Shown piece by piece: positions 25,277 to 25,918 of a DNA stretch of 44,644 nucleotides; position 1 is the first letter of the stretch, and the number at the start of each line of letters is the position of its first letter. The position numbers and the translations under genes are program-made. The DNA is from a virus (Duplodnaviria > Heunggongvirae > Uroviricota > Caudoviricetes). The notes below the pieces were generated by a model that did not search any database, was not told the DNA's origin, and saw only the letters and a list, made by a program, of their open reading frames with translations. The stretch lies in the IMG/VR virus record IMGVR_UViG_2568526230_000009; one strand, written 5' to 3'.

Positions 25277-25918
25277 TTATTTATCACTCCTGTAAATTGG
25301 AATTAACCATTTTCTAATCGTCGACGCTGCAGGTGGGTCAGAGTATTTCGCCACAAAAATACCGGATATGTATTGCACGCCACGCGATAATGGCGCTGTC
25401 GGGTTTTCAGTAAAAAAACGATCAGCCAGTTCAATGGCTTCGCTTTTTAATCTGTGCTGTGGTCGTCCTCCGCCCTTTGTTCCCAGGTATCGCGCCAGTT
25501 GTTTGAAACGGTAGGCGATGATTAACGGTCGCATCATCATATTGAAAAAATCGCGGGCATCGTTGTCAGCGCCTTGCGCTATCAACAGTGCAAAAAACAG
25601 ATACGGGATTATGTACACTTCAGGAGATATACGAACCCGTTCACAAGTTGGTGGAGCCAACTCAATAAGTAAGTCAGCCAGCGGATTCCCCTTTTCTCCA
25701 CGTTTGTAATAGCGATACAGCGGCCCGATATCAAGTTCACTCACGTCGATTTCAGGATGCCCGGCAACGACTGTACGTATCTCTTCTGCCAGAGCGTCAA
25801 ATATTGCCCCGGTCCGTTCAAGATAGAGCCTCCGGGTCGAACCGCGATCATCCAACGCCCGTAACATATCTAACCGGCTAACGAAAGTTTCAGGCCAGTC
25901 CTCATAGAAGGTTTTCAT
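25277..25918 (-). CDS. Hypothetical protein (start moved to ATG)
   Basis: Track start 25954 is GTG; ATG at 25918 has GAGGT upstream. One hydrophobic segment (VYIIPYLFFALLIAQGA). Confidence 0.4.
   Translation of the reverse strand: MKTFYEDWPETFVSRLDMLRALDDRGSTRRLYLERTGAIFDALAEEIRTVVAGHPEIDVSELDIGPLYRYYKRGEKGNPLADLLIELAPPTCERVRISPEVYIIPYLFFALLIAQGADNDARDFFNMMMRPLIIAYRFKQLARYLGTKGGGRPQHRLKSEAIELADRFFTENPTAPLSRGVQYISGIFVAKYSDPPAASTIRKWLIPIYRSDK

What the first reader, a model, noticed from the sequence alone, without database searches (positions are those of the whole stretch)
25277..25918. Unassigned 213-aa protein next to the ClbS-like gene
Same strand as the ClbS-like gene, with its own SD and one hydrophobic segment; I recognise no family. 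It may be a functional partner or an independent cargo gene.
Basis: inference. Interest (0 to 1): 0.4.

Follow-up and report, generated by a model that had tools for sequence, protein, structure and literature searches.

The report
Orphan phage protein beside induction switch
The 213-aa gene is a real prophage gene of unknown function. It sits next to the ClbS-like gene only because a mobile element carrying ClbS landed beside it, and its conserved neighbour is the small DNA-damage-controlled antirepressor gene that switches the prophage on.

Summary
The ORF (25277-25918, minus strand) is a real gene: GAGG Shine-Dalgarno site, dN/dS 0.07-0.30, full-length match to PHROG 5215 (function unknown).

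The ClbS link is accidental. ClbS is the passenger of a 1885-bp ISL3/ISEc53-family insertion sequence (23267-25151, 8-bp duplication). Only 10 of 443 E. coli genomes that carry the gene have ClbS beside it.

The conserved partner lies downstream. In eight phage lineages (26-100% identity) the gene is followed, 110-170 bp later, by a 55-77-aa antirepressor-like ORF. Six of these have a canonical LexA box, as in Gifsy phages. In satellites, homologues sit between int and alpA.

Best guess (0.4): a DNA-binding regulator coupled to the induction trigger. Rival (0.3): an unrelated accessory "moron".

Side finding: the ClbS-carrying IS inserts precisely into LexA boxes (CTGT|N8|ACAG).

The parts
25277..25918 (-). 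Gene X: the 213-aa orphan protein (RefSeq WP_000847617.1, annotated 'hypothetical protein'; PHROG 5215). N-terminal all-helical domain (~1-145), linker with GGGRP (149-153), C-terminal three-helix HTH-like domain (~158-212).
25924..25927 (-). Shine-Dalgarno GAGG, 5 nt upstream of the ATG
   Evidence: read from the sequence
25927..25967 (-). Inverted repeat CGAATAAT-N25-ATTATTCG abutting the Shine-Dalgarno site. It recurs with sequence variation in the Salmonella and L024 relatives. It could be an operator or a 5'-leader stem; this is unresolved.
   Evidence: by eye; covariation not tested statistically
25990..26022 (-). Terminator-like hairpin plus T-run upstream of X. It is weak in this window and a clean CCCGC-TTCG-GCGGG-T run in the E. 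whittamii and L031 relatives.
25241..25269 (-). Two 9-bp palindromes AAACNGTTT, 20 bp apart, starting 7 nt after the stop codon. Position and spacing are invariant in the E. coli, E. coli-69% and Salmonella lineages; in Klebsiella the spacing is the same but the first site starts 4 nt after the stop. Candidate protein-binding sites, or a weak terminator.
25215..25242 (-). Promoter-like site P1 (TTAATA-16-TATAAT) downstream of X, pointing at the antirepressor gene
   Evidence: conserved in Salmonella and E. coli-69%
25152..25183 (-). Promoter-like site P2 (-35 ATGACA at 25183-25178; -10 TATAAA at 25160-25155) overlapping the upstream half of the split LexA box (CTGT ATAAATAT, 25163-25152)
   Evidence: sequence compared with the intact site TACTGTATAAATATACAG in L001 and relatives
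23267..25151 (-). ISL3/ISEc53-family insertion sequence (1885 bp). Inverted repeats GGGTCTTCCCC / GGGGAAGACCC; transposase at 23295..24515; passenger ClbS/DfsB gene at 24534..25052. It is flanked by the 8-bp duplication ATATTTAT (23259-23266 and 25152-25159). It is NOT part of the X module: it interrupts it.
23053..23232 (-). 59-aa antirepressor-like ORF (phrog_340), the conserved downstream partner of X. It is now cut off from its LexA-box promoter by the IS. The remaining half box ...ATAAATATACAG lies at 23266-23255 (minus-strand order).
22379..22975 (-). DUF1367 protein, counterpart of Gifsy STM1020, the gene that follows the antirepressor in Gifsy-2

Best explanation
X is a soluble, all-helical, sequence-specific DNA-binding regulator of temperate phages and phage satellites. 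It forms a conserved cassette with the induction-trigger gene encoded just downstream.

Shown:
- X is a real, selected gene.
- It is followed in eight phage lineages by a short, highly constrained intergenic region and a 55-77-aa antirepressor-like ORF. Six of these have a canonical LexA box in front of that ORF. This resembles the Gifsy-type induction module.
- In satellites, its homologues sit between int and alpA.
- The most conserved part of the family is a C-terminal G-G-R-P motif followed by three helices.

Inferred:
- The GGRP arm plus three helices bind DNA, in the manner of the Hin/resolvase or Tc1-mariner HTH.
- The variable N-terminal domain dimerises or senses a partner.
- X gates expression of the trigger (antirepressor promoter in phages, alpA promoter in satellites), most likely as an extra repressor that keeps the trigger silent or limits it.
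- In the enterobacterial lineages this could act through the two AAACNGTTT palindromes that abut the -35 of promoter P1.

In this window the cassette is broken. The IS has split the LexA box, leaving X and the promoters on one side and the antirepressor gene on the other.
For: Synteny: X -> 110-170 bp -> small ORF in E. coli, E. coli-69%, Salmonella, Klebsiella, L024 (30% id), L027 (39%), L030 (26%) and L031 (32%).

LexA box: CTGT-N8-ACAG lies just before the small ORF in six of these eight lineages.

The small ORFs belong to two unrelated antirepressor-like families. One is phrog_340; its Klebsiella member matches the Gifsy-2 ORF at the gftA position (BLASTP 3e-7). The other is phrog_10889, annotated 'anti-repressor' (E=7e-8) (PMC3121763).

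Co-occurrence: 443 E. coli genomes carry X and 444 carry the small-ORF region.

The genes flanking the cassette differ between genera.

Between E. coli lineages and Salmonella, the intergenic region is more conserved (73-77% nt) than X (57-63%) or the small ORF (60-62%).

The AAACNGTTT pair keeps its sequence and spacing, although the RNA hairpin it could form is not stable in Salmonella or Klebsiella (z -0.2 and -0.5).

Satellites: int -> X -> strong terminator -> alpA in at least four lineages; the X start overlaps the int stop in L032.

The phage repressor is a 142-aa HTH_3 protein with no Peptidase_S24 (self-cleaving peptidase) domain. That is the repressor type that needs an antirepressor (PMC3121763).
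Against: There is no direct evidence of DNA binding.

The AAACNGTTT pair is restricted to the enterobacterial lineages. More distant relatives and the satellites have ordinary hairpins or terminators there. No matching site was found upstream of X.

Gifsy phages induce without any X homologue: tblastn found X in only 1 of 50,697 phage records.

Two of the eight lineages have no canonical LexA box.

The E. coli count of 443 genomes is largely clonal (most alleles >=99% identical), so the 1:1 co-occurrence is only a few independent observations.

Synteny could reflect co-inheritance of a block.
Confidence: 0.4

Rival explanations
1. X is an autonomous accessory gene (a 'moron'). It would be expressed from the prophage or satellite for a purpose unrelated to induction, such as exclusion of other phages or satellites, or anti-defence. 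On this view it merely occupies a permissive junction between transcription units, just before the LexA-controlled promoter.
For: X is bracketed by terminator-like elements on both sides in several lineages. Its distribution is rare and patchy: 54 clusters in 1.84 billion representatives and 1 of 50,697 phage records. The upstream neighbourhood is a variable island of opposite-strand cassettes or anti-defence-like genes such as an AcrIF11-like protein. Gifsy phages work without it (PMC3121763).
Against: The adjacency to an antirepressor-like ORF persists down to 26-39% identity and across two unrelated small-ORF families, while both outer flanks change. In satellites X is a fixed gene of the int operon, not a variable cargo slot. 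PADLOC gives no hit.
Confidence: 0.3
2. X is itself a repressor-type target of the neighbouring small antirepressor. The two would be kept linked so that cognate partners are not separated by recombination, with X controlling a downstream operon (nin/Q region in phages, alpA operon in satellites).
For: The family shows a conserved DNA-binding-like C-terminus and a fast-evolving N-terminal domain, as expected for a sensor or partner-binding domain. It is tightly linked to antirepressor-like ORFs.
Against: The phage already has a separate CI-like/YdaS-like immunity pair. Satellites have X but no small antirepressor next to it. No interaction data exist.
Confidence: 0.1
3. X is an accessory DNA-binding factor for site-specific recombination: an architectural or directionality factor working with integrase.
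For: In satellites X follows int directly and can overlap its stop codon. The GRP arm plus HTH is the type of domain found in recombinases and transposases (my own knowledge, plus the local matches).
Against: In the phages X lies about 17 kb from int/att, in the nin region. AlpA/Xis-type factors are already present in the satellites.
Confidence: 0.08
4. X is a membrane-anchored protein, or a functional partner of ClbS in protection against genotoxins.
For: One hydrophobic stretch reaches the Kyte-Doolittle threshold (1.61) in this allele. ClbS is adjacent in this window.
Against: The stretch is not hydrophobic enough in most relatives, contains charged or His residues, and is a confidently modelled helix (pLDDT 96-98) within the soluble helical N-domain. 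ClbS is an IS passenger, adjacent in only 10 of 443 genomes.
Confidence: 0.02

Closest known systems
Gifsy-type LexA-controlled antirepressor module (dinI-gftA/gfoA upstream of STM1020/irsA; Lemire et al. 2011, PMC3121763)
   Same: A LexA box with its promoter lies outside the immunity region and is preceded by palindromes. It drives a small (59-77 aa) antirepressor-like ORF placed directly upstream of a DUF1367/STM1020-type gene. The phage repressor is a short HTH_3 protein without a self-cleaving peptidase domain.
   Different: Gifsy phages have a dinI homologue after the LexA box and no X upstream. X was not detectable in the phage collection apart from 705R4. The antirepressor similarity is remote: phrog_340 versus phrog_4847, and BLASTP 3e-7 only for the Klebsiella member.
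P22 immI region (Mnt and Arc controlling the ant antirepressor promoter)
   Same: By analogy only: extra DNA-binding regulators encoded beside an antirepressor gene keep or limit its expression (my own knowledge).
   Different: Mnt and Arc are ~50-80-aa ribbon-helix-helix proteins. There is no LexA control, no sequence or fold similarity to X, and Mnt is divergently transcribed.
C-terminal HTH of Hin/resolvase-type recombinases and N-terminal HTH of Tc1/mariner transposases
   Different: No Pfam HTH model is matched by any of 37 family members at a meaningful E-value. There is no catalytic domain, and helix 2 and the helix 2-3 linker are longer. Membership is not established.
PHROG 5215 / RefSeq WP_000847617.1
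   Same: Identical or full-length match.
   Different: These entries carry no function, so they name the family but do not explain it.
SaPI Stl-type master repressors of phage satellites
   Same: By analogy only: an int-proximal DNA-binding protein of a satellite with a conserved DNA-binding part and a variable partner-sensing part (my own knowledge).
   Different: Stl has an N-terminal HTH and is transcribed divergently from the genes it represses. There is no homology, and no evidence that X represses alpA.

Membership tests
PHROG 5215 (phage protein family, function unknown) | Full-length match to the family HMM | tested here: met
   E=1.1e-150, residues 1-213 on profile positions 1-213
Functional partner of ClbS/DfsB (DUF1706) | Conserved co-occurrence and adjacency of the two genes | tested here: not met
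   10 of 443 genomes. ClbS lies inside an inverted-repeat-bounded IS with a target duplication, and the same IS+ClbS unit sits at sbmC, umuDC and other sites.
Integral membrane protein | A transmembrane helix conserved across the family | tested here: not met
   Best 19-residue Kyte-Doolittle window is 0.77-1.78, with most members below 1.6 and charged or His residues in the segment. In the model it is a helix at pLDDT 96-98.
Helix-turn-helix DNA-binding proteins (Pfam HTH families; Hin/transposase-type) | Significant match to an HTH sequence profile | tested here: not met
   No Pfam or NCBIfam hit. Only isolated E=0.02-0.18 hits in 1 of 37 members each. PDB profile searches returned only designed helical repeats.
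Helix-turn-helix DNA-binding proteins (Pfam HTH families; Hin/transposase-type) | Three-helix HTH fold superposable on known DNA-binding domains | tested here: inconclusive
Helix-turn-helix DNA-binding proteins (Pfam HTH families; Hin/transposase-type) | Sequence-specific DNA binding | not testable with these tools
   Needs EMSA, ChIP or footprinting
Gifsy-type LexA/antirepressor induction module (context of X) | LexA box CTGT-N8-ACAG at the promoter of a small antirepressor gene | tested here: met
   Intact in L001 and in 5 further lineages. In the window itself it is split by the IS.
Gifsy-type LexA/antirepressor induction module (context of X) | Small ORF homologous to GftA/GfoA antirepressors | tested here: inconclusive
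   The window ORF is phrog_340 (E=1.6e-20) and the Gifsy-2 ORF at the gftA position is phrog_4847. The Klebsiella orthologue links the two: BLASTP 3e-7 and phrog_4847 E=1.4e-3.
Gifsy-type LexA/antirepressor induction module (context of X) | Immunity repressor without a RecA-stimulated self-cleavage (Peptidase_S24) domain | tested here: met
   142-aa protein with HTH_3 only
Moron (autonomous promoter-gene-terminator unit expressed in the lysogen) | Own promoter and terminator; expression from the repressed prophage | tested here: inconclusive
   Terminator-like elements lie on both sides, but they are weak in this allele. Only a weak promoter-like site (TAGAAC-17-AATAAT) was seen, by eye. Expression is not testable here.
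Known anti-phage defence systems (PADLOC) | Match to a defence-protein model | tested here: not met
   0 families

The most novel reading that the evidence does not exclude
The X family is a previously unrecognised gatekeeper of induction triggers, shared by Gifsy-type prophages and AlpA-type satellites. It would be a DNA-binding protein with a new N-terminal fold that sets the threshold of the LexA-controlled antirepressor promoter in phages. In satellites it would supply the repressor of alpA, for which no equivalent of the SaPI Stl repressor is known to me in Gram-negative satellites.
Probability: 0.2. Interest if true: 0.65.

Novelty: new variant of a known kind. Interest (0 to 1): 0.45.

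Why it matters
If X regulates the antirepressor or alpA trigger, it adds a control layer to SOS-dependent prophage induction in a prophage that is common in ST131-type E. coli. It would also give a candidate for how AlpA-type satellites stay silent. Both ideas are directly testable by deletion and DNA-binding assays.

The check also corrects a misleading adjacency. ClbS is not a phage gene here. It rides on an insertion sequence that hit the LexA box of the antirepressor promoter, which probably uncouples this prophage's trigger from the SOS response.

The IS's apparent specificity for LexA boxes may matter more than X itself, if it has not been described already.

Tried and rejected
ClbS partnership: rejected (10 of 443 genomes; IS passenger).

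CapH/CapP-like control by the divergent 77-aa + M78-peptidase cassette (PADLOC capP, 2e-25): rejected as a conserved link. The cassette is absent from the Klebsiella, Salmonella and more distant contexts.

Aca-like repressor of an acr gene: considered because an AcrIF11-like gene lies upstream in Klebsiella. It is not adjacent and not conserved.

Membrane anchor: rejected.

Longer GTG start: rejected.

Searches that found nothing informative:
- PDB sequence-profile searches with the full-length and C-terminal alignments.
- Rfam: nothing in the flanking intergenic regions.

The search for related loci with the wide alignments failed for lack of conserved stretches. The genome-contig scan returned a single locus.

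The AAACNGTTT pair as a simple terminator: not excluded, but the hairpin is not stable in Salmonella or Klebsiella. As an X operator it is only a hypothesis, and no such motif occurs in distant relatives.

The annotation note 'All2787 protein' in the 705R4 record could not be verified.

Full report
**1. The observation**

The ORF at 25277..25918 (minus strand) encodes 213 aa. It starts at an ATG preceded by GAGG with a 5-nt spacer. It is a real gene:
- It matches phrog_5215 over its full length (E=1e-150, function unknown).
- It is present once per genome, always on the chromosome, in 443 of 5426 complete E. coli genomes.
- It has 62-72% identical homologues in Klebsiella, Salmonella and other E. 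coli.
- dN/dS is 0.07-0.30 among near-identical alleles.

The longer GTG-initiated reading (25954) is unlikely. The family starts at the equivalent ATG, and in-frame stops lie 3 and 6 codons upstream of it in two relatives.

Pfam, NCBIfam and PADLOC give nothing. PGAP calls it a hypothetical protein (WP_000847617.1).

**2. The ClbS neighbour is an accident**

I compared the window with phage vB_EcoM-705R4 (ON470624). It is the only one of 50,697 phage records that carries the gene.

The comparison shows that 23267-25151 is an insertion:
- It is an 1885-bp ISL3-family element. PGAP labels it 'ISEc53 family', and the transposase has Zn-ribbon, HTH and DDE_Tnp_ISL3 domains.
- Its terminal inverted repeats are GGGTCTTCCCC and GGGGAAGACCC.
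- It has an 8-bp target duplication, ATATTTAT.
- The ClbS/DfsB (DUF1706) gene is its passenger.

Only 10 of the 443 genomes with the gene have ClbS beside it. The ClbS unit itself occurs at 1372 places in 757 genomes, 260 of them on plasmids.

**3. What the protein looks like**

An exhaustive profile search of 1.84 billion representatives found only 54 clusters at E<=1e-3. Apart from short fragments, the members are mostly ~180-240 aa, with three of 266-286 aa.

With a 37-sequence alignment, AlphaFold gives a consistent all-helical model (pLDDT 90.3, pTM 0.69). Residues ~1-145 form a helical domain at pLDDT up to 98. A low-confidence linker carries the nearly invariant G-G-R-P. Three C-terminal helices follow.

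The C-terminal ~65 residues are the most conserved part of the family:

G..GGRPxHxxKxEAL.iA....P.......V...L..KY.D.P...TI..WL

The N-terminal domain diverges to 15-25% identity.

So the N-domain has no recognisable relative. The C-domain looks like a Hin/transposase-style 'GRP arm + HTH', but no HTH profile is matched. That assignment is an inference.

The hydrophobic stretch (99-116) is not a conserved transmembrane helix.

**4. The conserved neighbourhood**

The window is a lambdoid-type prophage with myovirus structural genes. It contains an integrase next to tRNA genes, an exonuclease and Gam, a CI-like/YdaS-like/CII-like immunity region, O- and DnaB-like replication genes, an accessory island, then X, DUF1367, YbcO, Q, lysis and terminase genes.

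With the IS removed, X is followed by a 151-bp spacer and a 59-aa ORF. The same arrangement recurs in every phage context I could retrieve:
- E. coli, including a 69-72% lineage
- Salmonella
- Klebsiella
- four distant lineages at 26-39% identity (L024, L027, L030, L031)

A canonical LexA box (CTGT-N8-ACAG) lies just before the small ORF's Shine-Dalgarno site in six of the eight lineages.

The small ORFs belong to two unrelated families:
- phrog_340. This family also matches the C-terminus of the window's large Ant protein. Its Klebsiella member matches the Gifsy-2 ORF located where Lemire et al. mapped gftA: GUG start, between dinI and STM1020 (BLASTP 3e-7).
- phrog_10889, annotated 'anti-repressor'.

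Evidence: PMC3121763.

The immunity repressor is a 142-aa HTH_3 protein without a peptidase domain. That is the type that needs an antirepressor.

Further points:
- In E. coli, X and the small-ORF region co-occur essentially 1:1 (443 versus 444 genomes). These genomes are largely clonal.
- The genes on either side of the cassette differ between genera.
- Between E. coli and Salmonella, the spacer is more conserved (73-77% nt) than X (57-63%) or the small ORF (60-62%).

**5. Satellites**

More distant homologues (19-27% identity) lie in integrative elements that carry AlpA, Bro/Ash/ORF6N genes and a DUF927 or D5-type primase. The order is always int -> X -> strong terminator hairpin (z -5.7 to -7.2) -> alpA. 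In one lineage the X start overlaps the int stop.

So in both kinds of element X sits immediately upstream of, and is transcriptionally insulated from, the gene that triggers the lytic or excision programme.

**6. Elements in the spacer**

In the enterobacterial lineages the spacer begins with two 9-bp palindromes AAACNGTTT exactly 20 bp apart. They start 7 nt after the stop codon (4 nt in Klebsiella). They abut a promoter-like TTAATA-16-TATAAT. About 50 nt further on lies a second promoter-like site whose -10 sits inside the LexA box.

The RNA hairpin these palindromes could form is significant only in E. coli (z -2.65). It is not stable in Salmonella or Klebsiella (z -0.2 and -0.5), although motif and spacing are kept. 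This hints at protein-binding sites. More distant relatives have ordinary hairpins instead, so the point is unresolved.

Upstream of X there is a terminator-like hairpin and an inverted repeat (CGAATAAT-N25-ATTATTCG) abutting the Shine-Dalgarno site. The repeat recurs with variation in relatives.

**7. Interpretation**

The best-supported reading (confidence 0.4) is that X is a DNA-binding regulator functionally coupled to the induction trigger, most plausibly gating its promoter.

What is shown:
- the gene is real
- its anatomy
- the conserved cassette
- the constraint on the spacer

What is inferred:
- DNA binding
- the target
- the sign of regulation

The main rival (0.3) is an unrelated accessory gene parked at a permissive operon junction. 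In its favour are the family's rarity, the terminators on both sides, and the fact that Gifsy phages induce without X.

Lesser rivals are that X is the cognate target of the antirepressor (0.1) or a recombination accessory factor (0.08). The ClbS-partner and membrane-protein readings are essentially excluded.

**8. Comparison with known systems, and novelty**

The context is a variant of the Gifsy-type LexA/antirepressor module (PMC3121763). It has X upstream and lacks dinI.

X itself is catalogued but uncharacterised. I found no paper describing it; my literature searches targeted the Gifsy antirepressor module, AlpA-type satellites and the IS rather than X by name. I rate it a new variant of a known kind, of moderate interest.

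**9. Side finding that may deserve its own follow-up**

The IS that brought ClbS here split the LexA box of the antirepressor promoter exactly at its centre: CTGT|ATATTTAT|ACAG, with the duplication equal to the central 8 bp.

Nine E. coli copies that I examined sit in five different SOS boxes:
- this prophage
- a plasmid dinI-like/umuDC operon
- sbmC, in both orientations
- a site next to fabY
- a DinI-like gene

That is at least six independent events, and all are precisely CTGT|N8|ACAG.

I then scanned metagenome contigs with the 22-nt right end of the IS:
- 100 ends were found, with 51 distinct flanks.
- 39 of the 51 flanks (84 of the 100 copies) have ACAG exactly at +9..+12. Chance at a fixed position is 1/256.
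- 43 of the 51 have CAG at +10..+12.

Literature searches found no description of this targeting. That is absence from this library only.

In this window the insertion leaves the promoters facing ClbS. It separates the antirepressor gene from its LexA-controlled promoter, so SOS induction of this prophage is probably altered. This is an inference.

Noticed in passing
window 23267-25151 (IS); flanks 23255-23266 and 25152-25163; loci L036-L043 and L044-L123: The 1885-bp ISL3/ISEc53-family element carrying the ClbS/DfsB gene inserts precisely into LexA (SOS) boxes, with the 8-bp target duplication equal to the central N8 of CTGT-N8-ACAG. Nine E. coli copies sit in 5 different SOS boxes (prophage antirepressor promoter, plasmid dinI-like/umuDC, sbmC in both orientations, a site next to fabY, a DinI-like gene). 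Of 51 distinct right-end flanks from metagenomes, 39 have ACAG exactly at +9..+12. No description was found in the searchable literature.
   Followed up: partly
window 23053-23266 and 25152-25183: The IS insertion splits the LexA box and separates the 59-aa antirepressor-like gene from its promoter(s), which now face the ClbS gene. About 22 of the 443 genomes have this spacer interrupted (421 contiguous), 10 of them by the ClbS IS. SOS induction of this prophage copy is probably altered (inference).
   Followed up: partly
window 25520-25553 (inside X); also the DUF1367 gene, around 22834-22867 and 22693-22725: E. coli CRISPR arrays in other strains contain spacers 100% identical to X (NZ_CP136900.1) and to the neighbouring DUF1367 gene (NZ_AP022036.1, NZ_CP098234.1, NZ_CP166879.1).
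   Followed up: no
window 32184-32381 (minus) and 31344-32180 (minus): Rfam finds isrK, C4 antisense RNA and its a1/b1 targets directly upstream of a 278-aa ORF6N/Ant-type anti-repressor. This is a P1-immI-like second antirepressor module in the same prophage.
   Followed up: no
window 26162-27897 (plus strand) and 28360-29058 (minus): A cassette lies divergent from X: a 77-aa protein (phrog_5550, weak MerR-HTH hint), a 162-aa ImmA/IrrE M78 peptidase (PADLOC capP 2e-25) and a 201-aa protein with a C-terminal hydrophobic region. It is followed by a 232-aa protein with a weak hit to a DRT-associated 'RTasTM' model (1.8e-5). This may be a CapH/CapP-like regulated accessory or defence unit. It is not conserved next to X in other genera.
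   Followed up: partly
L006 6740-6803 and L007 2300-2364 (satellite alpA leaders): The alpA 5' leader contains nested inverted repeats whose outer stem includes the Shine-Dalgarno site (CCCCTGAC...GTCAGGGG in L006 versus CTCCTAAC...GTTAGGGG in L007). The changes look compensatory, which suggests translational control of alpA (by eye only).
   Followed up: no
L002 8001-8641 (Escherichia whittamii): The X orthologue there (96% identity) is split by a frameshift near codon 40, so it is a probable pseudogene, while the downstream LexA box and small ORF are intact.
   Followed up: no
window 43643-43944 and 42466-43512: The prophage integrase lies next to a tRNA-Leu/Cys/Gly cluster, the probable integration site.
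   Followed up: no
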